A stretch of DNA of 63,125 bases. Origin: a virus. The notes under the pieces were generated by a model that saw only the letters and a program-made list of their open reading frames with translations, was not told where the DNA came from and did no database searches. Position numbers and translations under genes: made by a program. Each line of letters opens with the position of its first letter. The stretch's first letter is position 1. The stretch lies in the UHGV virus genome UHGV-1373161; one strand, given 5' to 3'. Below are positions 32,620 through 52,294 of this stretch, one piece after another.

Positions 32620-33723
32620 TTATGCTGCGTTCGGGTCTTTCGCTGCGGTGTCGATAGCCACCACGCCGAAATCGCGCTTGTTGAAACGGGTCTTGCTGAT
32701 GCCGATGATGGTACCGGCGGCAACAGACGGCTCGTTGTCGTAGTCAGCCAGCTTCTCTTTCCAGGTGAAGTTCAGGCCTTTGGTGGTGCCGTAAGCAACC
32801 ACACCAGCCTGGCGGCCCAGGAAGAGCGCGCGGGCGGCTTTGACGTTGGACGCTGCGCCGTAGTCGCTGAAGCGGATAACGTCGCGGTGCTTGTGCAGCA
32901 CGATATCATCGATCATGCCCAGGCCGCCTTTGAAGATGACGTTGGCTTTACCTTCAGCAGCGGCAGCGGCTTTCTGGATATCCAGCCAGCCCGCACCGGC
33001 TTCGGTACGCAGGTCAAACGCCTGGGTCGGGTTCATCACCAGCACGTAGTGGTCGCTTCCGCCGATAGGGATCGGGAGCAGGTTGGCGCTACGCGGGTCA
33101 AGCGCACGCATCATCGCTGCCTTATGGCTCGCCTTCTCAATCAGCAGGCGGGTCATTTTGTCGTCAGCGGTCAGGGTGGCTTTGCTGGTGGCGGAACCAC
33201 CAAACAGCAGGTGCTGGCCGTCCGGGGTGCGGATCGGGTTGCCTGCGTGCCCGGCGTAGTCGGACGGGAACGATTCATAGTTCTCGTTCATGCCGCGAGC
33301 GCCCGACAGGTAGATGAAGAACATCTGGTCGATGTACTGGCCCCACCATTCGGACAGGCGTTTTTTCGCAACGTCACGCAGATCGTGAGCGGTACGCTTG
33401 CGGGTCATCTTGCCGCCGCAGGAAACAGACTTACGCAGCTGGTCAATGATGATTTCGTCGGAGAAGAACTTCAGCTGTTCTTCGTTGCCTTCCAGACGCT
33501 GGTCGCCGGAAACCGGGCCGCCGCGTAACTGGACGGAGAGATCGAAGCTAATGCGGTCGCCCACGTCAGCATCGAGTTCGGTCTTGCGCTGGATTACTGC
33601 GTCATCACCTTTACCGATGAATTTTTCCCAGTAGCTCTTCCCCAGCGTTTCCGCGTAGAGACGCGCCGACCATTTTTTCTGCGCCTGGACATCATTGCCC
33701 CAGGTGATAGTGGTTTGGCTCAT
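32620..33723 (-). CDS. Major capsid protein, 367 aa
   Basis: Follows the scaffold gene; size and composition typical of HK97-fold podophage coat proteins. Confidence 0.65.
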   Translation of the reverse strand: MSQTTITWGNDVQAQKKWSARLYAETLGKSYWEKFIGKGDDAVIQRKTELDADVGDRISFDLSVQLRGGPVSGDQRLEGNEEQLKFFSDEIIIDQLRKSVSCGGKMTRKRTAHDLRDVAKKRLSEWWGQYIDQMFFIYLSGARGMNENYESFPSDYAGHAGNPIRTPDGQHLLFGGSATSKATLTADDKMTRLLIEKASHKAAMMRALDPRSANLLPIPIGGSDHYVLVMNPTQAFDLRTEAGAGWLDIQKAAAAAEGKANVIFKGGLGMIDDIVLHKHRDVIRFSDYGAASNVKAARALFLGRQAGVVAYGTTKGLNFTWKEKLADYDNEPSVAAGTIIGISKTRFNKRDFGVVAIDTAAKDPNAA

Positions 33724-33802
33724 AATGTGCCCTCAAGAACGTGCGGTGTGTCGGGATCGCCGCACGTCTTGCGCAGCATTACGTTTCGATTATCGAATGA
33801 CT

Positions 33803-33821
33803 GTTGCTGAAATGCAAACAC
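33803..33821. promoter_or_regulatory. Palindrome-family variant GTTGCTgaaatGCAAACAC upstream of the coat gene
   Basis: Shares 17 nt (GAAATGCAAACACTCA) with site 40586-40603 and the left arm with the GTTGCT-N5-AGCAAC family. Confidence 0.45.
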
Positions 33822-34031
33822 TCATGTCATGGCAATGGCTGTTTTGCTTGGAATGTCAACCTCCTGTTGCCCCTCTACAGCGCCGGGGCGCTTATCGCAG
33901 TGAATAATTACGCTTTCCGGCGCTTCGATTATAAAGCTGCACCGTTTACCGGCCTTCTTCACCATACGCACGGTTGCGTCGCCAATTTTCAGCACGTCGC
34001 CCTCGCGCAAATCGAATTTAAGTGCCCCCAC
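33822..34031 (-). CDS. CsrA-like small RNA-binding protein, 69 aa
   Basis: GTG start with AGGAG SD 8 nt upstream; aligns to CsrA: LREGDVLKIGDATVRMV..SFIIEAPESVIIH vs VGETLMIGDEVTVTV..RIGVNAPKEVSVH. Confidence 0.5.
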   Translation of the reverse strand: MGALKFDLREGDVLKIGDATVRMVKKAGKRCSFIIEAPESVIIHCDKRPGAVEGQQEVDIPSKTAIAMT

Positions 34032-34042
34032 GCTGTTTCTCC

Positions 34043-34966
34043 TTATCGACGGGTGTATGCGTCGTATTCGTCGGCGCTCATGCGGGCGATAGTCTCCTGG
34101 TACTTCTGAGGATCGCTATCAGCCATGCGGTCGAGCGCTGCGAACTTGCCATCGTCGGTATCTTCCGGCGCGGCGGCTGGCACCTTCGCCAGTGTCGGGG
34201 GGATATCCAGCGCCTTTTGCTGCTGCTTCGGCTGCTGCTGGGCCGCCTGCTCCTGCTTCGGATTTTCGCTCGCCGGTTTCGGCGGTGCAATTCCGCGCTC
34301 ATCGGCCCAAATGCGATACGCCCGCTCAAGGTCAGCTTCACCATAGCGAAGGCCTTGCTCTGCCTTTGCCTTTGTGATGCTCTGCACCAGCAGGTCGAGG
34401 GCTTTAAAGTCCTCTTCGCTGGCGTAAATTTCAGGGTGACGCTCAGCAAACGCCTTCACATCGGCCTGCCACTGGCGCTCGATCTGCTGTTCGACGCTTT
34501 CGCGGTTCAACTCGTCTTTACGCTGCTGCCAGTCCAGATCCCCGCGCTCTTTGTTCAGCTCGCGCAGCTGGGCATTATATTCGCGGGTGGTAAGCTCGCC
34601 CTCTTCGAACTTCTCGATCAGCTCTTCTTCGCGCTTATCGATATCGTCATACTTAGCCTTCAGCTCTTCGGTTGCCACCGGCTTAAATACCGGCTGCGGC
34701 ACCGGTGCTTCAGGCTGCTGGGCTTTCTGCTGCTCCTGTTGGCCCTGCTGCTCTTCCTGCTGCTGCTCTTCCGGCTTCCCATCTTTCTCCGGATCTGGCT
34801 TTTTGTCCGGATCGGTGTCCTGCTCTTCTTCCTGCTGTTGTTGCTGCTGGGCGGCAACCTGATCCAAATCTACCTCCTGGTGCTCGGAATCACTATCCGG
34901 CGCTTCCAGGGCGGCGCGCTCTTCTTCGGTCAGGTTAGCCAGAATGCTTTCATCGATATCAGCCAT
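34043..34966 (-). CDS. Scaffolding protein, 307 aa
   Basis: Highly charged Gln/Glu/Lys-rich coiled coil between portal and coat. Confidence 0.55.
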   Translation of the reverse strand: MADIDESILANLTEEERAALEAPDSDSEHQEVDLDQVAAQQQQQQEEEQDTDPDKKPDPEKDGKPEEQQQEEQQGQQEQQKAQQPEAPVPQPVFKPVATEELKAKYDDIDKREEELIEKFEEGELTTREYNAQLRELNKERGDLDWQQRKDELNRESVEQQIERQWQADVKAFAERHPEIYASEEDFKALDLLVQSITKAKAEQGLRYGEADLERAYRIWADERGIAPPKPASENPKQEQAAQQQPKQQQKALDIPPTLAKVPAAAPEDTDDGKFAALDRMADSDPQKYQETIARMSADEYDAYTRR

Positions 34967-34973
34967 AATTTCC

Positions 34974-37316
34974 TCACTGCTGGGGTTGTGGTTGAGGCAG
35001 GCCAGCGGGCTGCTGTTCCTGCTGTTGCTGCTGGGCGGCCTGTTCCTGCTGGGCCTGTTGCTCCTGCATAGCCTGCTGCTCGGCAGCGGCTTGCTGTTGC
35101 TGCTCGGCCTGCATCACTGCAGCCTGGCGGGCTTCTTCCTCGCCTTCTGTCCGCGAGAGGAAGCTGGATTCATGGAGAATGTTGTCTGCTACCGGAACGG
35201 CGGCAGGTTGTGACAGCGCCATAAGTGCGGCTTCCAGCGCAGCTTTTTGGGTATTGACGTTCTGACCGGCCATTGATGCGAGGATCTGCTGTGCCTGCGC
35301 CTGCTCTTTGCCAGCTGACGCGGCGTTTTTCTGCGCATTGCTCTGTTTGAGCGCGGCGTCCGCCTCGTCTTTGGCAATGGCGGCCAGCTGTGCCCGCTGC
35401 TGCAGCTCTGCCTGCGCCTGCTTGGCCTTCTCGGCGGCAATCTCTTCCGGGGTCGGCTCTTCGGCGTCCGGGTCGCGCATACCAGTGACCTGGCGGATAC
35501 GCTTAACCAGCTCTTCACGGCTGGTGATATCCATCCCTTCGACCAGAATATCCATCATGACCAGTGCCAGCTGCGGTGCTACCGGTGCCAGCTGCTGCAG
35601 CAGGCCGAAAAGCTCTTCGGTCTGCGCCTGGCGGATGGTATTACGCCAGTCTTCTTCGCCAATGACGAAATCAGCCTTCGAGCGAATGATATCATTGTCC
35701 GGATCCCCATCGTTGATGGTGATGTATTCCGGGGTATTGCGCATGTTCGTGATGCGGAATTGCTTCTCTTCGCTGTAGAACTGTTCGATGGCGGATAGCA
35801 GCTTCTCACCATGCACCTGGACGGCATAACGCAGGTTGTCGAAGATAAGCGCCGTAGCCAGACCGCCCTGCTCCTGGCGCGCCGTGATGGCCTTACCGCT
35901 TGATGCGTTCGTTTGGCGGCCCAGGTTCTCATCGGTGACGCCGGAAACCTGCTGAATCATGCCGATAGCTTGGCTCATCATTTGCAGGTGAGAGGCCGCA
36001 AGCTCACGGTCAGCGTTGATGATTAGCTCTTTGCCTTGTTTCTTGACGATAACGGCATCCGGCCGGGCAACCTCTTCCCTGAACTCGTCCAGATCGTCTA
36101 CAGCACCCTCGTCCATGATGGTTTTGTTCGTGGATATGATATGCAGCGCCTTACTGGCACGCTTATTGATATCTTCCTGCATGTCGCGCAGGTTACGGAT
36201 CACGCCATACGGCAGCTTGTCGCGACCACGGCGATAGCACCAGATAGGCGTAAACGGGTATGAGTTGTGCCGGTACGGGCTTGGTCCATCCCAAAGCATG
36301 CCACCGACGCAGAATATTGAGACGCGCATACGCATGGCGCGGGGAATAGTGACCGGATATCCTCGCTGAGCCTCAATGTCAGCCTGGTGGCCGGGTGCCG
36401 GGTCATCCGGGTCGTAGATCTCGCCGTTGAAGTCGCCACCGCGCATTTTTTCCACTTCTTCGGTGACTTTGTGCCAAGCCTCGATGATGCGGACCCGCTC
36501 GCGCTTGAAGGTGGTGACGGCATTGCGGTAGTGCGATGTCTCGTTGAGGCGTTCCTGGCTGTCGGAAGCGTCGTCTCCGTAGTCGTCGATCTCCCAGTCA
36601 TTGGCAGCGCGCGCACACATGCGCAGCAGTCCAGCACGGTCAGGGAACATCGCTTCGGCTACATCGAGATCCACCCACTTAAAGCGGAACACATAGCGGG
36701 CGTCTGACAGGTCCGGCTCTGTGCAGGCGCTATCCCACAGGATGTTTCGCCAGCTCTCGTAGCGGTCATAGACCGGCTCGCCGTCTTCAGGCTGCTGCAG
36801 GCCTTCTTCCATCCAGCCTACGCCTACCTTCGTGCAATCCTCAAAAGCCCGGCTGCGGTGGAATGGTGAGCGGTTGATGTCGCTCAGATACTTCATGAGC
36901 TGGGTCTTGCGCTCTGCGGCCTTACCGGCATCTTTCCGGCGCGGCAGGATTTTCCAGTCCGTGCGTCCGCGCTTTTCGGTGCCGATGATCCAGTTGATGC
37001 TGGTGGCAATGACGTTATAGACCAGCGGCACCTGCCCGCGCTCTCTCAGCGCTGCTGCGTCCTGCTCACGCCACTGGATGCCATCATAGAAATCTTCGTC
37101 CCTGGCCTGCTGCTGGCGGTTATCTGCCTGACGGGCCAGCTCATCCTGGAATATTCCCAGGAGGCGCGCATAGCGATTGACCATATCGGGATGGTCTAAT
37201 TCATGGTCGGGTTTCCCGCGCTCTTCCTCGCTGGCGTATGCTGCGTCTGGTAAGTCATCGAGCGGCACATGTCTGGCGTCGCGCAGGTCAAAGCCCGTAT
37301 CTGGTTTATCAAACAC
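34974..37316 (-). CDS. Portal protein, 780 aa, with long Gln-rich C-terminal helical extension
   Basis: Size and position after terL; C-terminal AAAEQQAMQEQQAQQEQ barrel-like tail as in P22-type portals. Confidence 0.7.
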   Translation of the reverse strand: MFDKPDTGFDLRDARHVPLDDLPDAAYASEEERGKPDHELDHPDMVNRYARLLGIFQDELARQADNRQQQARDEDFYDGIQWREQDAAALRERGQVPLVYNVIATSINWIIGTEKRGRTDWKILPRRKDAGKAAERKTQLMKYLSDINRSPFHRSRAFEDCTKVGVGWMEEGLQQPEDGEPVYDRYESWRNILWDSACTEPDLSDARYVFRFKWVDLDVAEAMFPDRAGLLRMCARAANDWEIDDYGDDASDSQERLNETSHYRNAVTTFKRERVRIIEAWHKVTEEVEKMRGGDFNGEIYDPDDPAPGHQADIEAQRGYPVTIPRAMRMRVSIFCVGGMLWDGPSPYRHNSYPFTPIWCYRRGRDKLPYGVIRNLRDMQEDINKRASKALHIISTNKTIMDEGAVDDLDEFREEVARPDAVIVKKQGKELIINADRELAASHLQMMSQAIGMIQQVSGVTDENLGRQTNASSGKAITARQEQGGLATALIFDNLRYAVQVHGEKLLSAIEQFYSEEKQFRITNMRNTPEYITINDGDPDNDIIRSKADFVIGEEDWRNTIRQAQTEELFGLLQQLAPVAPQLALVMMDILVEGMDITSREELVKRIRQVTGMRDPDAEEPTPEEIAAEKAKQAQAELQQRAQLAAIAKDEADAALKQSNAQKNAASAGKEQAQAQQILASMAGQNVNTQKAALEAALMALSQPAAVPVADNILHESSFLSRTEGEEEARQAAVMQAEQQQQAAAEQQAMQEQQAQQEQAAQQQQQEQQPAGLPQPQPQQ

Positions 37317-37740
37317 GTTCGATTACCTCAGAGTGATGGGTTTTCCCTGTGTCGTGGTCGGTGCGGAATGCATCTGCGACGACGACGCCGGTTGTCGGCT
37401 TGGGAGGGATAGCGATCAGGTCGCCCAGGTGGTCATGAATGAGGGTTACTATCTTCATGGCGGCGAACACGTTGCCGGTGTCCATGTTGTTCATATCGAG
37501 GAAGGCCATGCACATGACGCGGTTCAGTTGCGGCATTGCCTGGGGGTCTTCCGGGTTCCACTGCCAGGCGTCATCGAGGTCGATAATCAGCGGGCGGCAG
37601 CGGTCAGCACCGATGCGATAGGTTGGAACAACAACGAGGCACGGCTGATGCTCGACCCCGTACCATGTACCGTAAATGGTCAGATCCCCGCGCGTATGCA
37701 CGAAATGGTACTGAGTCAGGTCTAAAACGTGCTCTGCCAT
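37309..37740 (-). CDS. Hypothetical protein, 143 aa, between terL and portal
   Basis: ORF overlapping the portal start by 8 nt; palindrome site A just upstream. Confidence 0.4.
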   Translation of the reverse strand: MAEHVLDLTQYHFVHTRGDLTIYGTWYGVEHQPCLVVVPTYRIGADRCRPLIIDLDDAWQWNPEDPQAMPQLNRVMCMAFLDMNNMDTGNVFAAMKIVTLIHDHLGDLIAIPPKPTTGVVVADAFRTDHDTGKTHHSEVIERV

Positions 37741-37771
37741 GATTGCCCTCTGTTGCGTTTATGTCTTATGC

Positions 37772-37788
37772 GTTGCCAGTATAGCAAC
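37772..37788. promoter_or_regulatory. 17-bp palindrome site A (GTTGCCagtatAGCAACac)
   Basis: In the 53-nt gap between the terL stop and the 143-aa gene. Confidence 0.55.
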
Positions 37789-37793
37789 ACTTA

Positions 37794-39413
37794 TCACACA
37801 GCCATACCCGAAGTATTTCGTCTCGGCTTCGCCTTTGTGCGGCGGCGGCCAGCGTTCGGGTCTGATCCGTACACCTGCGCCCACTGACGGAAGGCGTCGG
37901 CGGCCTCACTGTGACCGTCGTCTTTCTCCGGCTGGTCGGTGAAAGTCTGCATTCTGGCATTATATTTTTTCCGGTAGCTATCCAGGTGAGCAACGCCCTC
38001 TTTGCAGGCATCCTTATCGATCCAGGCTGTTGCCATCATGTTCCTGGTAATCTGGATGCCGTGCTGCAGCTCGCTGACGCGCTCAACGATCTCGATGCGG
38101 CGGCGGCCTTCCTTCTCCAGCATTTCTTTCGGCGTCAGGTTGGCATTCTGCCCCTGCCGTACATGGTTGCCGTCGTGAGGCAGATAGTCGGTGCCCCAAA
38201 CGTACCCCAGCTTGTCCAGCTCCCGGACGTAATAGCCGTATGGTTCGTCCCAGCCCTCAATGAAGCCGATAAATCGATGCTCCTGCCCAATGTGCTGGTG
38301 CAGCCAGATAGCCGTTCCGTCGCCACTGCCGATGTCCCAAAACGTGTTGACGGGATAGCCAGGCGTATACGGTACGGTGGTAAGGCGCTTCTCCTTGCGC
38401 ATCTTGACCATCTGTTTGGTGTAGTAGCAGCCCTCGGTCGATTTCTGGAAAGCCTCTTCCGGCGAGCTGGGGTATTCCTGCCACATCTTTTCGTCCTGGC
38501 CGGAATAGACGTTATCACGCGTGCTCACCCACCATGCCCGCTGCTCGATATCGATCATGGTGTCCATTTTGGCTTCTATCTCGTCAAAATATTCGTGCTC
38601 TGTCTTCGAGATATCGACCAGCTCCGGATCCATGCGGTACTGCATGTCCTCCCACCAGGGATAGAAGTGGAAGGCGAACTCCTTGTTCGTGAGCCTGCGC
38701 CCCAGGGCGGCAATCTTCTGCGCACGCTGGCACATCATGAAGAACTCGCCTTCCCGGCCTTCAGCGGTGGACTCGATGAAAATCATGCCCATTTCAGCCG
38801 CCGGGATTGAGCCGGTCACTACCTCATTGGCGCGGTCAGGGAACTTGGCGCAGATTTTACCGAACTCGGAAATGTGCAGGTGGGTCAGCGTACCGCCACG
38901 GAATGAGGTGGCAACGCTCACCTTGCTGCCGTTGTGGGCGAATTCCAGCGCGTCGGCGCGGTCGCGTACCAGCGGCATCACCGCACGCAGAACATCCGGC
39001 AGGTTGTCATAGCCGAACTTCACCTTGTCCCTGAATATCTCCTCAGCCATGTCCTGGTTATGCGCTACGATAGCCGCTGTCGTCGGGTTATTGGCTGGGG
39101 CGAACAAAGCACAGTCGAGAAACAGGATGGCGATGAACGTCGTGAAGCCCAGCTGGCGCGCCTTTAAGATGATGTTGCGCTTGTGCAGTCTCTTCAGCAG
39201 CTTCCGCTGCGCCCGGTTCGGCTTGAATGGCACAATACGGACTTCGCTTTCATCCTCTTCCCCGAACTCATCTCGCGGTTTGGTCTTGATTTTGTACAGC
39301 TGCCCGGAACACAGCCTCCAGTATGGGTCACTGAGGCACTGGAACAGCTCGTCATCGTTCGATGGCACGAAATCGAGCGGCACTGAGCCGGGTTTAGCCG
39401 CCTGCAAACTCAT
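37794..39413 (-). CDS. Terminase large subunit
   Basis: 540 aa from ATG 39413 (MSLQAAK) with GAGGGGG SD; Walker-A-like ARQLGFTTF; C-terminal nuclease acidic residues. Confidence 0.8.
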   Translation of the reverse strand: MSLQAAKPGSVPLDFVPSNDDELFQCLSDPYWRLCSGQLYKIKTKPRDEFGEEDESEVRIVPFKPNRAQRKLLKRLHKRNIILKARQLGFTTFIAILFLDCALFAPANNPTTAAIVAHNQDMAEEIFRDKVKFGYDNLPDVLRAVMPLVRDRADALEFAHNGSKVSVATSFRGGTLTHLHISEFGKICAKFPDRANEVVTGSIPAAEMGMIFIESTAEGREGEFFMMCQRAQKIAALGRRLTNKEFAFHFYPWWEDMQYRMDPELVDISKTEHEYFDEIEAKMDTMIDIEQRAWWVSTRDNVYSGQDEKMWQEYPSSPEEAFQKSTEGCYYTKQMVKMRKEKRLTTVPYTPGYPVNTFWDIGSGDGTAIWLHQHIGQEHRFIGFIEGWDEPYGYYVRELDKLGYVWGTDYLPHDGNHVRQGQNANLTPKEMLEKEGRRRIEIVERVSELQHGIQITRNMMATAWIDKDACKEGVAHLDSYRKKYNARMQTFTDQPEKDDGHSEAADAFRQWAQVYGSDPNAGRRRTKAKPRRNTSGMAV

Positions 39414-39439
39414 CGCGCCCCCTCGAAAAGCAACGATGT

Positions 39440-39470
39440 GAAGATATTGCACAGAAAACCGCTATAATGC
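39440..39470 (+). promoter_or_regulatory. Candidate promoter of the XRE gene (perfect TATAAT at 39462-39467)
   Basis: TATAAT 45 nt upstream of ATG 39512; the -35 is weak or ambiguous (TTGCAC at a 10-nt spacer). Confidence 0.3.
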
Positions 39471-39511
39471 GGTGAGGCAAGTGCATTTATTTCACTTTGA
39501 GGATATCGAAT

Positions 39512-39730
39512 ATGGGCGGATTTGAACTGAAACTCTGGCGCAATGGCCTGGGCTGGTCCCAGGAACGGGCAGCTGAAGAGCTGGGAGTGAGCAGACGGAC
39601 TTACCTTACGTGGGAACAGAAAGGCACCTCCCGCGTGGTCGAACTTGCCACGCAGGCGCTGTCCATCAAAGCCGAATGGCCTGAAACCGCCAAAAAGCTG
39701 AATAGGCTGTCCACTCTCGCGAAACACTAA
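39512..39730 (+). CDS. XRE-family HTH regulator, 72 aa, antisense between terS and terL
   Basis: GAGGA SD 7 nt upstream; LGWSQERAAEELGVSRRTYLTWEQKG is a canonical HTH_3; stop overlaps the terS stop convergently. Confidence 0.5.
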   Translation: MGGFELKLWRNGLGWSQERAAEELGVSRRTYLTWEQKGTSRVVELATQALSIKAEWPETAKKLNRLSTLAKH

Positions 39731-40509
39731 GTATCCTCTTTGTCCTGCTTAACTGGGGTGATAAGCGCGCCGGGCAGCTGCTGTAGCAGAACTTGCAATG
39801 GGTTCTGCTCATCCCCTTTAAGTGTCAGCTTATCATTGAACATGCCCAGGTGCCTCGCAATCTGGTCGAGCGCTGCTTTCTGGTCATGCATTTTTACTTC
39901 CAGCCCCTCTTTCGACTGCTTCACGCCTGCGAATAGAGCCAGCGCTGCCGGTGAAAGGTTGCGGGTGTCCTGAAAGTAGGTGCTCAGATGGCCGTCGCCG
40001 TGACACTCCGGGCATTTGGCGTGCGGAGAGAGTGAGGAGTCGAATCCATAACCACCTTCATCGGTGATATCGCGTGGCGGCCTATCTTCCTGTTGTGCTG
40101 CCATAGCCTCGCGCGCTTTGGCGTTCTCGAACTCGGCCTCATCCTTCCACTGGAATGCATGGTCAATGCCATAGCAGTGACGGCAGCACGTCCGGCGCAG
40201 CTGTGTCAGCTCGTTCGGGTTGGCGGTCGCTATCATCCAGTACCGCTGTAACACCATGTCCTGGGTGATTTTGGTGCGCTCTGAGCGCTTCTCCATGCCA
40301 GCCAGGATCGCAGCGTAGACCAGAGGCTTCACCTTACCATTGCTGACCCACATGTAGGCTTTCGTTCGGGCAACGGTGGCGCTATAACCGGCCGCAAGTG
40401 CAGCCCGTTCCGGTGACAAATCGATTAGATATTCGTCCACAAAGCGTTTATCGCGTGCTGATAGCTTTGTGGCCTTTGCTGTAGGCGTCTTGGTTTGTTT
40501 CCTGTTCAT
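39727..40509 (-). CDS. Terminase small subunit (Terminase_2/P27-like)
   Basis: KRFVDEYLIDLSPERAALAAGYS motif; first gene of the late operon. Confidence 0.7.
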   Translation of the reverse strand: MNRKQTKTPTAKATKLSARDKRFVDEYLIDLSPERAALAAGYSATVARTKAYMWVSNGKVKPLVYAAILAGMEKRSERTKITQDMVLQRYWMIATANPNELTQLRRTCCRHCYGIDHAFQWKDEAEFENAKAREAMAAQQEDRPPRDITDEGGYGFDSSLSPHAKCPECHGDGHLSTYFQDTRNLSPAALALFAGVKQSKEGLEVKMHDQKAALDQIARHLGMFNDKLTLKGDEQNPLQVLLQQLPGALITPVKQDKEDT

Positions 40510-40589
40510 AACGTGTCCTTGCGGGTTGACATATCCGCATGCATCGGGAATCGCTCCCGGATCGCTTTGTTGCGATTGTAGAAACAGGG

Positions 40590-40607
40590 GTTACGAAATG
40601 CAAACAC
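40590..40607. promoter_or_regulatory. Palindrome-family variant GTTACgaaatGCAAACAC in the terS / plus-island divergent region
   Basis: 17-nt identity with 33806-33824; overlaps the start codon of 40598 and lies about 80 nt upstream of terS. Confidence 0.4.
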
Positions 40608-40864
40608 TCAAGCCGATAGATGGGCGGTGGCTTTACTGGCAGCAGGTAGACCTGGCAAACGGTGTTTTCCGTGTGCAGGGCGCTGAATGGCGTACGGAAT
40701 GTCCAGACTTAACCGAATGGGTTGACTGGACCGGTTCGGCGCAGCTGGAAGAAGAGATCGGCCTGGCTCTCGATATGCTTGGCGCGTACATGCTTGGTAA
40801 ATGGGTTGGCTTCGGACGGACGATAGACGGCATCTGTCATGGTATAGCCTGGATGGTGTCCTGA
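40598..40864 (+). CDS. Hypothetical protein, 88 aa (first gene of the plus-strand island)
   Basis: ATG with AGGGGT SD; Trp-rich, no known motif. Confidence 0.4.
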   Translation: MQTLKPIDGRWLYWQQVDLANGVFRVQGAEWRTECPDLTEWVDWTGSAQLEEEIGLALDMLGAYMLGKWVGFGRTIDGICHGIAWMVS

Positions 40865-51597: not shown

Positions 51598-52194
51598 ATG
51601 CCTGTGAACAAAAAATATTTTGACGACCTGATGAAAGACCGCCGGATCTCCCTTCGGGCCATCGCCAGGGAAATGAACTGCTCACCGTCACAGCTCTCCA
51701 GAACGTTCGGCGGGTACCGGCGCATGCAGCTGGCAGAAGCCGCAACCATCGCCAGAATGCTCGGCGTACCGGTGGTTGAGGTCATGGTGAATGCCGGTAT
51801 CGAGGAAGTGCGGGGTGAGCGGAAGTACGCCAAAGTGATCGGCTTCCTGAAAGGGGATTTGACCGTCTCCCCTGTCCCTGATGACGTTCGGGAACGGGTG
51901 CCACTTCCGATAGCAGACCTGCCGCCGGATACCGTCGCCATCCAGGCCCGCACAGCGAATACGCCGTTCTCCTTTCTGGATGGATGGGTGTTCTTTGTCG
52001 GCCCAAGGGTGGATGCCAGCGACGAGATCGGCAGCTACTGCGTGGCGCACGTCGAGGGCGGAGACAAGATAATCGGCACGCTTTCGAAGGGCTATCAGCG
52101 CGGGACATACAACGTCACCGGCGCGGCGGGCATCGCAAGGCAGAGTATGAAAGTCGATTGGGTTCGTAGGATTTATTTCACGCAACACGCCTAA
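51598..52194 (+). CDS. CI-like repressor (N-terminal XRE HTH, C-terminal oligomerisation domain, no S24 motif)
   Basis: GGGAGG SD; ISLRAIAREMNCSPSQLSRTFGG HTH; no GDSM/Ser-Lys autoprotease signature. Confidence 0.55.
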   Translation: MPVNKKYFDDLMKDRRISLRAIAREMNCSPSQLSRTFGGYRRMQLAEAATIARMLGVPVVEVMVNAGIEEVRGERKYAKVIGFLKGDLTVSPVPDDVRERVPLPIADLPPDTVAIQARTANTPFSFLDGWVFFVGPRVDASDEIGSYCVAHVEGGDKIIGTLSKGYQRGTYNVTGAAGIARQSMKVDWVRRIYFTQHA

Positions 52195-52217
52195 AAGTGT
52201 TGCCGTTCTCAAATATA

Positions 52218-52235
52218 TTGTTCTAATATAGCAAC
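52218..52235. promoter_or_regulatory. Palindrome-family half-site ATTGTTctaatatAGCAACac downstream of cI
   Basis: Right arm AGCAACAC perfect, left arm degenerate; upstream of the 52295 gene. Confidence 0.35.
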
Positions 52236-52294
52236 ACAGGATTGCAGCGGTTAAATGATGACCGCTCACATAATCACCGTCAAAAGGGGGATTT

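What the first reader, a model, noticed from the sequence alone, without database searches (positions are those of the whole stretch)
33803..40607. A second shared 17-20-nt element, GTT(G/A)C-GAAATGCAAACACTCA, upstream of the coat gene and at the terS / plus-island divergent promoter
33806-33824 and 40586-40603 are identical over 17 nt (GAAATGCAAACACTCA plus flanks). Both begin with the GTTGC left arm of the palindrome family. One lies ~85 nt upstream of the major capsid start, just after the CsrA-like gene. The other covers the start codon of gene 40598 and lies ~80 nt upstream of terS. A perfect TTGACA at 40526-40531 lacks a -10. Together these look like a dedicated late-promoter or activator site variant.
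Basis: seen in the sequence. Interest (0 to 1): 0.55.

Follow-up and report, generated by a model that had tools for sequence, protein, structure and literature searches.

The report
Paired late-gene promoters, shared -35 box
The repeated 16-base element is most likely the upstream (-35) half of two matching host-type promoters that drive this Klebsiella phage's DNA-packaging and capsid genes; the feature is real and conserved in related phages but ordinary in kind.

Summary
A single 16-mer repeat in 63 kb is near chance, so the evidence comes from context. Read on the minus strand (TGAGTGTTTGCATTTC), both copies lie upstream of minus-strand genes, terS and the major capsid gene. Each forms TTGCAT-17 bp-TACAAT or GATAAT, followed by CGNAAC and a purine. 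The same architecture with invariant spacing sits at both syntenic positions in Serratia phage Parlo, Erwinia phages PEp14 and Pavtok, Pseudomonas phage Itty13 and six uncultivated contigs (17 sites). A matrix built only from other genera ranks these two window sites first (49 and 44 bits; shuffle maximum 18.5). The phage group has no RNA polymerase gene. Best reading: two sigma70-type structural-gene promoters, P_terS and an internal P_MCP, with the 16-mer as an extended -35 box (-43 to -28). Late timing and any activator are inferred, not shown. The link to the GTTGC palindrome family holds partly for the capsid copy only. Related finds are a third promoter before the endolysin gene and a conserved leader hairpin shared by the capsid and endolysin mRNAs.

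The parts
40595..40610 (-). 16-mer copy B, minus strand TGAGTGTTTGCATTTC. This is the extended -35 box of P_terS (about -43 to -28). It contains the ATG (40598-40600) of the divergent + strand ORF.
33809..33824 (-). 16-mer copy A, minus strand TGAGTGTTTGCATTTC. This is the extended -35 box of P_MCP. Its first three bases are the TGA stop of the CsrA-like gene.
40568..40607 (-). P_terS core: GTGTTTGC box, -35 TTGCAT (40603-40598), 17-bp spacer, -10 TACAAT (40580-40575), CGCAAC, predicted +1 A at 40568.
   Evidence: (49.4 bits with a matrix from other genera)
33782..33821 (-). P_MCP core: GTGTTTGC box, -35 TTGCAT (33817-33812), 17-bp spacer holding GCAAC (imperfect dyad with the box), -10 GATAAT (33794-33789), CGAAAC, predicted +1 G at 33782.
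   Evidence: (44.5 bits)
33760..33776 (-). Leader hairpin HP1 (CUGCGC-AAGAC-GUGCGG) in the capsid mRNA leader. It is part of a 25-nt block identical to the endolysin leader.
2227..2266 (-). Third related promoter, P_lys, upstream of the endolysin gene: GTTGTGGTTATGGCAAC, 8 nt, TAAAAT, CGAAAC, A. It follows a strong terminator at 2303-2280.
   Evidence: (21.3 bits)
2199..2215 (-). Second copy of leader hairpin HP1, in the endolysin leader.
40526..40553 (+). Divergent promoter-like site for the + strand island: TTGACA, 16 nt, GAATCG. Its predicted start (~40560) faces the predicted P_terS start (40568).
   Evidence: Conservation of TTGAC(A/T)-N16/17-GAATC(A/G) was read from the terS leaders. The start sites are inferred.
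39727..40509 (-). terS, the first gene downstream of P_terS.
   Evidence: Terminase_2, E 2.6e-25
32620..33723 (-). Major capsid gene, downstream of P_MCP.

Best explanation
The two copies are the upstream halves of two paralogous promoters of the host sigma70 type. They fire leftward on the minus strand. P_terS heads the structural-gene operon (terS, terL, portal and onward). P_MCP is an internal booster promoter placed between the CsrA-like gene and the major capsid gene. Each promoter reads (G)AGTGTTTGCAtTT, which contains a -35 TTGCAT, then a 17-bp spacer, then a -10 (TACAAT for terS, GATAAT for capsid), then C-G-N-A-A-C and a purine that is the likely start site. The 16-mer covers about -43 to -28.

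Shown: the sequence architecture, its uniqueness in the genome and its conservation at both syntenic positions across genera. Inferred: that host RNA polymerase starts at about 40568 and 33782, that these are 'late' promoters, and that the conserved non-consensus bases flanking the -35 (GTG upstream, T at -29) are contacts for something beyond sigma region 4, possibly a phage factor.
For: (1) The ungapped alignment of the two upstream regions shares the 16-mer. It also shares TTC-A-AATCG-AAC at the same offset.

(2) The promoter scan calls both sites on the minus strand. TTTGCA-N18-NANAAT matches only these two sites (0.10 expected). AATCGNAACR matches only these two plus the endolysin upstream site.

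(3) Serratia phage Parlo, Erwinia phages PEp14 and Pavtok and Pseudomonas phage Itty13 carry the same box, the same spacing and the same -10. They follow the same rule of GATAAT before capsid and TACAAT before terS.

(4) A matrix built only from Parlo, PEp14 and Itty13 sites ranks the two window sites first at 49.4 and 44.5 bits. The shuffle maximum is 18.5.

(5) An IMG/VR pattern scan plus tblastn finds six further uncultivated contigs with the motif about 100 nt upstream of capsid or terS homologues. Across 17 sites, G-37 TTTGC-32, T-29, A-11, AATC (-9 to -6) and AAC (-3 to -1) are invariant.

(6) GTGTTTGC occurs only twice in each of the PEp14 and Itty13 genomes, at these two sites.

(7) More distant relatives (Skulduggery, Bcep22, Ralstonia p2110, Ochrobactrum POI1126, Sinorhizobium PBC5) keep a TTGnnn-17 bp-(-10) pair at the same place before the capsid gene, with different sequences. 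This is the turnover expected of host-polymerase promoters.

(8) terS has a divergent gene upstream, so it needs its own promoter. No other candidate lies in the 88-nt gap.

(9) The group has no phage RNA polymerase gene (PMC10052179), and the giant gene is DarB-like (PMC6606913).

(10) The coding overlap does not explain the conservation.
- Two synonymous positions of the opposite-strand Gln and Thr codons never vary.
- Itty13 keeps the box at terS without an overlapping gene.
- The capsid copies have no + strand ORF.
Against: There are no transcription data, so start sites and timing are inferred. The -35 matches the TTGACA consensus at only 3-4 of 6 positions, and there is no extended -10 TG. 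The invariance of a non-consensus box across hosts exceeds what sigma70 contacts normally impose, so host polymerase alone may not suffice. In the capsid copies the box is also one arm of an imperfect inverted repeat, and the -10 lies in a small dyad. Both could be operator or RNA features superimposed on the promoter. The identical 86-nt distance to both ATGs is peculiar to this lineage and carries no weight.
Confidence: 0.75

Rival explanations
1. The box is mainly the binding site of a phage-encoded factor: a class II-type activator, a sigma-appropriation partner or a repressor. Under this reading the promoters are silent or mis-timed with host sigma70 polymerase alone. The 16-mer is then a dedicated late-control site rather than just a -35 element.
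For: - Twelve positions around the -35 (-40 to -29) are conserved across phages of Klebsiella, Serratia, Erwinia and Pseudomonas, including bases outside the hexamer and a non-consensus hexamer.
- Within a genome the two copies tend to agree over more bases than the cross-genus core: 16, 13, 11 and 8 nt.
- Capsid-type copies carry a dyad, GAGTGTT(T)GC-N6-GCAACACTC, that is 78% paired across 11 sequences.
- Conserved small regulator-like genes lie nearby. One is an HTH gene antisense between terS and terL. The others are the small genes of the + strand island.
Against: - No factor has been identified.
- The box is not a palindrome at the terS copies.
- The HTH gene and the gp27-like gene are missing from Itty13, which keeps the box.
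- The architecture is a complete sigma70 promoter with optimal 17-bp spacing.
- Distant relatives replace the box with other TTGnnn hexamers.
Confidence: 0.2
2. The element acts in RNA, as a hairpin or processing site in the long structural transcript. An example would be a site that separates the csrA-like cistron from the capsid cistron.
For: The capsid copy forms an imperfect inverted repeat directly after the csrA-like stop codon. The capsid leader is highly structured.
Against: The terS copy lies upstream of the first gene of the operon, where no minus-strand transcript is expected, and it lacks the second arm. There is little covariation in the dyad. No Rfam family matches. This reading does not explain the conserved -10 at fixed spacing.
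Confidence: 0.03
3. The repeat is a chance match, a by-product of overlapping coding sequence, or a + strand feature (a shared translation start ATG-CAA-ACA-CTC).
For: About 0.5 exact direct repeats of at least 16 nt are expected by chance in this window. Copy B does cover a real start codon, and Parlo's homologue also begins M-Q-T-L.
Against: - The box is conserved across genera at both sites.
- Parlo's capsid copy has no ATG on the + strand, and the window's 31-codon + strand ORF at copy A is antisense to the csrA-like gene.
- PEp14's unrelated divergent ORF still begins TTG CAA ACA CTG. The DNA therefore appears to dictate the peptide, not the reverse.
Confidence: 0.02

Closest known systems
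Host sigma70-dependent phage structural or late promoters, for example lambda pR' (from my own knowledge)
   Same: A -35/-10 pair with 17-bp spacing read by host polymerase, placed at the head of the packaging and head genes. The phage has no polymerase of its own.
   Different: There is a second, near-identical internal copy directly before the capsid gene. The conserved box extends beyond the hexamer. No Q/qut-like arrangement was identified. Timing control is unknown.
T4 middle promoters with a MotA box (sigma appropriation by MotA/AsiA; from my own knowledge)
   Same: A sigma70 -10 combined with a conserved non-canonical box of similar sequence (TTTGCATTT here, TTTGCTTTA in T4) in place of a consensus -35.
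   Different: Here the box ends 15 bp from the -10, against 11-13 bp for a MotA box centred at -30. No MotA or AsiA gene is annotated in this phage group. Resemblance only.
Lambda CII / P22 C1-activated promoters (TTGC-N6-TTGC; from my own knowledge)
   Same: TTGC at the -35 position of a promoter with a weak consensus match.
   Different: The second TTGC repeat is absent. The sequence 6 nt downstream is GCAA at the capsid copy and TAAC at the terS copy.
Face-to-face or overlapping divergent switch promoters of temperate phages, for example P2 Pe/Pc and 186 pR/pL (from my own knowledge)
   Same: At copy B, the predicted start of P_terS (40568, leftward) and that of the island promoter (~40560, rightward) face each other. 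Two polymerases therefore could not occupy both promoters at once.
   Different: The arrangement is entirely inferred from sequence. No repressor or operator is defined, and the -10 of the island promoter (GAATCG) is poor.

Membership tests
sigma70-type promoter | -35 hexamer resembling TTGACA | tested here: met
   TTGCAT (3 of 6) or TTTGCA (4 of 6) at both sites. The TTG is invariant in 17 sites.
sigma70-type promoter | -10 hexamer resembling TATAAT, with A at position 2 and T at position 6 | tested here: met
   GATAAT and TACAAT, each 5 of 6. A-11 and T-7 are invariant.
sigma70-type promoter | Spacer of 16-18 bp, with the promoter on the coding strand upstream of a gene | tested here: met
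   The spacer is 17 bp (18 in the tool's register) and invariant in 17 sites. The sites lie 60-75 nt upstream of the terS and capsid start codons.
sigma70-type promoter | Transcription start mapped downstream, dependent on sigma70 holoenzyme | not testable with these tools
   No transcript data exist for this phage group in the searched literature.
Phage late promoter (temporal class) | Activity restricted to late infection, or dependent on a late regulator | not testable with these tools
   Only the nature of the downstream genes (terS, capsid, endolysin) suggests late expression.
T4 MotA-box middle promoter | (a/t)(a/t)(a/t)TGCTTtA box centred at -30, 11-13 bp from the -10 | tested here: not met
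   The similar 9-mer TTTGCATTT ends 15 bp from the -10.
T4 MotA-box middle promoter | MotA and AsiA encoded by the phage | not tested
   None is annotated in the LASTA or SopranoGao records. No systematic profile search of all ORFs was done.
Lambda CII-type activated promoter | Direct repeat TTGC-N6-TTGC across the -35 | tested here: not met
   TTGC-ATTTCA-GCAA at the capsid copy and TTGC-ATTTCG-TAAC at the terS copy.
sigma54 promoter | GG at -24 and GC at -12, 10 nt apart (TGGCAC-N5-TTGCA) | tested here: not met
   TTGCA is present, but the position 12 nt upstream of the GC is AC, not GG (read).
Lastavirus GTTGC-N7-GCAAC palindrome family | Both 5-nt arms with a 7-nt spacer | tested here: inconclusive
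   Copy A (33803-33819) matches with 2 mismatches and resembles members closely (TTTCAGCAAC shared with the 58362 site). Copy B's 16-mer is not a member; a 1-mismatch member (40569-40585) lies over its -10 instead.
Lastavirus GTTGC-N7-GCAAC palindrome family | Same distribution among phages as the family | tested here: not met
   The family is absent from the Parlo and Itty13 loci, and there is a single hit in PEp14. The promoter box is present in all three.

The most novel reading that the evidence does not exclude
The (G)AGTGTTTGCAtTT box, the invariant C-G-N-A-A-C start region and the GCGC-ANGAY-GUGC leader hairpin together mark a dedicated late-expression system. It would be shared by PEp14-, Parlo- and Lastavirus-like podophages and, for the hairpin, by Bcep22-like phages of beta- and alpha-proteobacteria. 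In this system an unidentified phage factor would recognise the box and switch transcription from the facing island promoter to terS. The phage's own CsrA-like protein, always encoded immediately upstream of P_MCP, would bind the hairpin to time capsid and endolysin translation.
Probability: 0.2. Interest if true: 0.6.

Novelty: new member of a known kind. Interest (0 to 1): 0.35.

Why it matters
It gives the first specific, testable map of structural-gene transcription for Lastavirus, a Klebsiella phage group under study for therapy, and its relatives. The map has three promoters (terS, capsid, endolysin) with predicted start sites, where the published regulatory-element search (PHIRE) returned only what looks like a coding repeat. 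It also corrects two annotations. It points to a conserved mRNA leader hairpin next to the phage csrA-like gene, which the literature treats as a moron gene with no known target. The promoter pair itself is ordinary biology.

Tried and rejected
- **Rfam.** A scan of the whole window at gathering thresholds gave no hits.
- **Literature.** Searches for the phage names and for the motif strings found no description of these promoters or of the hairpin. The Bcep22 paper was not held.
- **+ strand ORF at copy A.** There is a 31-codon ORF starting at the ATG at 33812. I rejected it because it is antisense to the csrA-like gene and Parlo has no ATG there.
- **sigma54, sigma28, CII, MotA and Ogr-type motifs.** I checked these by eye. 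sigma54, sigma28, CII and MotA do not fit. The Ogr-type TGT-N12-ACA element was only glanced at, not tested thoroughly.
- **pac site.** Rejected because there is a copy at the capsid gene.
- **gp27-like protein (40598-40864) as the regulator.** It has no Pfam, PHROG or NCBIfam family. Only 2 close homologues were found, too few for a useful structure model. It is absent from PEp14 and Itty13.
- **Equal 86-nt distance to both ATGs.** It is not conserved in other genera, so it is not evidence.
- **Covariation in HP1 and in the promoter dyad.** It is not statistically convincing.
- **IMG/VR pattern hits.** About half of the 41 hits have no capsid or terS homologue nearby and are probably chance matches.
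Full report
**What the window is.** The window is a Klebsiella podophage of the genus Lastavirus. It is 95-96% identical over 10 kb to SopranoGao, vB_KpnP_ZX1, LASTA and SJM3. Structural genes run on the minus strand from terS (39727-40509; Terminase_2) through terL, portal, a CsrA-like gene (33822-34031) and the major capsid gene (32620-33723). They continue to a 4019-aa DarB-like gene and the lysis cassette. According to the LASTA paper the genomes carry no RNA polymerase gene (PMC10052179). The giant gene is regarded as a DarB homologue (PMC6606913).

**The observation.** GAAATGCAAACACTCA occurs exactly twice, at 33809-33824 and 40595-40610.
- The identity is 16 nt, and the flanking GTTGC/GTTAC need a 1-nt gap.
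- In a first-order Markov model of the window, about 0.5 exact direct repeats of at least 16 nt are expected. Five are observed.
- The repeat on its own is therefore not compelling, and the case rests on context.

**Anatomy.** On the minus strand the element reads TGAGTGTTTGCATTTC.
- An ungapped alignment of the two upstream regions also shares TTC-A-AATCG-AAC 12 nt further on.
- The consensus scan independently calls both sites as TTTGCA-18-GATAAT (capsid) and TTTGCA-18-TACAAT (terS) on the minus strand. The equivalent reading is TTGCAT with a 17-bp spacer.
- The pattern TTTGCA-N18-NANAAT has only these two matches in 63 kb (0.10 expected).
- AATCGNAACR has three matches: these two plus a site before the endolysin gene.
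- With the -10 at -12 to -7, the 16-mer spans about -43 to -28. The likely start is the purine after C-G-N-A-A-C, at 33782 and 40568.

**Comparative evidence.** Serratia phage Parlo belongs to a different genus, and only terL was detectable at the DNA level. It nevertheless keeps the element at both syntenic positions with identical spacing. So do Erwinia phages PEp14 and Pavtok and Pseudomonas phage Itty13.
- A matrix built only from the Parlo, PEp14 and Itty13 sites scores the two window sites at 49.4 and 44.5 bits. The third-ranked site scores 21.3, and the shuffle maximum is 18.5.
- An IMG/VR scan with GTGTTTGC-N20-ANAATCNNAAC returned 41 stretches. tblastn showed which of them have capsid or terS homologues about 100 nt downstream. 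About half have neither, close to my rough estimate of the chance background.
- This added six uncultivated contigs.
- Across 17 non-redundant sites, G-37 TTTGC-32, T-29, A-11, AATC (-9 to -6) and AAC (-3 to -1) are invariant.
- Capsid sites always use GATAAT and terS sites always use TACAAT.
- GTGTTTGC occurs exactly twice in each of the PEp14 and Itty13 genomes.
- More distant relatives keep a TTGnnn-17 bp-(-10) pair at the same place before the capsid gene, with other sequences. These are Skulduggery, Bcep22, Ralstonia p2110, Ochrobactrum POI1126 and Sinorhizobium PBC5. This is the turnover expected of promoters read by each host's housekeeping sigma factor.

**Coding overlap is not the cause.** At copy B the box overlaps the first codons (M-Q-T-L) of the divergent ORF.
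- The synonymous third positions of the Gln and Thr codons never vary among homologues that are only 42-60% identical.
- PEp14's unrelated divergent ORF still begins TTG CAA ACA CTG.
- Itty13 keeps the box at terS with no overlapping gene.
- The capsid copies overlap only a stop codon.

**Interpretation.** The best-supported reading is a pair of sigma70-type promoters. P_terS heads the structural operon; terS has a divergent neighbour and needs its own promoter. P_MCP is an internal promoter that would boost capsid expression. The 16-mer is their extended -35 box.
- Start sites, late timing and any dependence on a phage factor are inferences.
- Conservation of a non-consensus hexamer and of bases outside it across four host genera leaves room for a dedicated factor (about 0.2).
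- None could be identified. The nearby gp27-like protein has no family and almost no homologues.
- The gp27-like protein and the conserved antisense HTH gene are both absent from Itty13.
- The identical 86-nt distance to both ATGs is lineage-specific.

**Relation to the palindrome family.** GTTGC-N7-GCAAC has six perfect sites in the window. A seventh hit of the relaxed N5-9 pattern, at 34840, has a 9-nt spacer (0.64 expected for the relaxed pattern).
- Most perfect sites are preceded by GTG, giving GTGTTGC.
- The capsid copy resembles a member with one extra T: GTGTTTGC-ATTTCA-GCAAC, sharing TTTCAGCAAC with the 58362 site.
- Capsid-type sites in other genera also carry the second arm, (G/A)CAACAC. 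The dyad is 78% paired with little covariation.
- The terS copies lack the second arm.
- The family itself is essentially absent from Parlo, Itty13 and PEp14.
- The promoter box is therefore older than, or independent of, the family.

**Related features found on the way.**

(a) A third promoter of the same design lies before the endolysin gene, after a strong terminator at 2303-2280. Its sequence is GTTGTGGTTATGGCAAC-N8-TAAAAT-CGAAAC-A, at 2266-2227. PEp14 has the equivalent site. A weaker fourth site precedes the methyltransferase and portal genes (37790-37752).

(b) The longest exact repeat in the window is a 25-nt block, GCTGCGCAAGACGTGCGGCGATCCC. It lies in the predicted leaders of the capsid and endolysin mRNAs.
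- Its hairpin, CUGCGC-AAGAC-GUGCGG, is conserved in capsid leaders from gamma-, beta- and alpha-proteobacterial phages.
- The loops seen are AAGAC, AUGAC, UGGAU, AGGAU, AGGA and AUGA.
- It is also conserved in the endolysin leaders of PEp14, Itty13 and PBC5.
- A covariance model finds exactly two copies per genome.
- Covariation is not significant, and Rfam has no match.
- In capsid leaders the 3' arm can instead pair with CCGCA(C/U) just before the Shine-Dalgarno sequence. This is the minimum-energy fold in the window, with a z-score of -2.9.
- The csrA-like gene sits immediately upstream in the gamma- and beta-proteobacterial members. Some loops carry the GGA typical of CsrA sites. This suggests, but does not show, that the hairpin is its target.

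(c) At copy B, a conserved TTGAC(A/T)-N16/17-GAATC(G/A) on the + strand probably serves the divergent island. Its predicted start faces that of P_terS, so the two promoters would exclude each other. This is inference.

**Verdict.** This is a real, conserved regulatory element of a familiar kind. The promoter pair has not been described for this phage group in the literature I could search. It is not surprising in itself. The leader hairpin and the facing-promoter arrangement are the more interesting leads.

Noticed in passing
window 33752-33776 (-) and 2191-2215 (-): A 25-nt identical block, GCTGCGCAAGACGTGCGGCGATCCC, is the longest exact repeat in the window. It lies in the predicted leaders of the capsid and endolysin mRNAs. 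Its hairpin GCGC-ANGAY-GUGC is conserved in capsid and/or endolysin leaders of phages infecting gamma-, beta- and alpha-proteobacteria. There are exactly two copies per genome and no Rfam family. It may be the target of the adjacent CsrA-like protein, or a stabiliser or antitermination signal.
   Followed up: partly
window 33725-33776 (-): In the capsid leader, the hairpin's 3' arm GUGCGG can alternatively pair with CCGCAC just upstream of the Shine-Dalgarno sequence. This is the minimum-energy fold (-25.4 kcal/mol, z -2.9). The alternative pairing is possible in all capsid leaders inspected. Parlo, PEp14 and Pavtok have a U-run directly after the first hairpin, which looks terminator-like. 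The window does not.
   Followed up: partly
window 2227-2303 (-): A strong intrinsic terminator (2303-2280) after the DarB-like gene is followed by a promoter-like site before the endolysin gene (GTTGTGG...GCAAC-N8-TAAAAT-CGAAAC-A). The site shares the -10 and start module with the two 16-mer promoters. PEp14 has the equivalent.
   Followed up: partly
window 37752-37790 (-): GTGTTGCTATACTGGCAAC-N8-CATAAA-CGCAACA lies just before the Shine-Dalgarno sequence and ATG of the methyltransferase gene (37740). It has the same layout as the other promoters but a poor -10.
   Followed up: no
window 17674, 37772, 44836, 46437, 48901, 58362 (+), and near-members at 2248, 40569, 43467, 51482: The palindrome family GTTGC-N7-GCAAC has six perfect sites (0.64 expected for the relaxed N5-9 pattern). 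Most are preceded by GTG and sit in short gaps just upstream of start codons. The family is essentially confined to Lastavirus among the relatives examined. Its function is unknown.
   Followed up: partly
window 40526-40553 (+): TTGACA-16 nt-GAATCG is conserved in relatives as TTGAC(T/A)-N16/17-GAATC(A/G). It is probably the promoter of the + strand island. Its predicted start faces that of P_terS within about 10 nt, so the two promoters should interfere with each other.
   Followed up: partly
window 39497-39730 (+), versus ORF 39410-39727 (-): A 77-aa helix-turn-helix protein gene lies antisense between terS and terL (HTH_3; phrog_6962, E 1e-34). It is conserved at 58-74% identity in Parlo, PEp14 and three uncultivated contigs. 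The overlapping same-strand ORF annotated in Parlo (gp57) is only 30-37% conserved and looks like a shadow ORF.
   Followed up: partly
window 52188-52243: The early divergent control region carries a long palindrome, GTGTTGC-N25-GCAACAC. It encloses a TTGCCG-18-TAATAT promoter-like site. The GTGTTGC and GCAACA motifs therefore bracket at least one probable early promoter too.
   Followed up: no
window 33822-34031 (-): The CsrA-like protein is only 74-77% identical to those of SopranoGao, ZX1 and LASTA, whereas the neighbouring capsid protein is 99-100% identical. It is a local hotspot of divergence.
   Followed up: no
whole window: ARAGORN and Rfam find no tRNA gene, although the LASTA record annotates a tRNA-Arg(tct).
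   Followed up: no
window 33783-33797 (-) and the same position in relatives: The -10 of capsid-type promoters sits in a small dyad, N-GATAATC-N'. The flanking pair is C/G in 5 sequences, T/A in 4 and unpaired in 2 of 11. In the window it extends to TTCGAT-A-ATCGAA. The meaning is unknown.
   Followed up: partly
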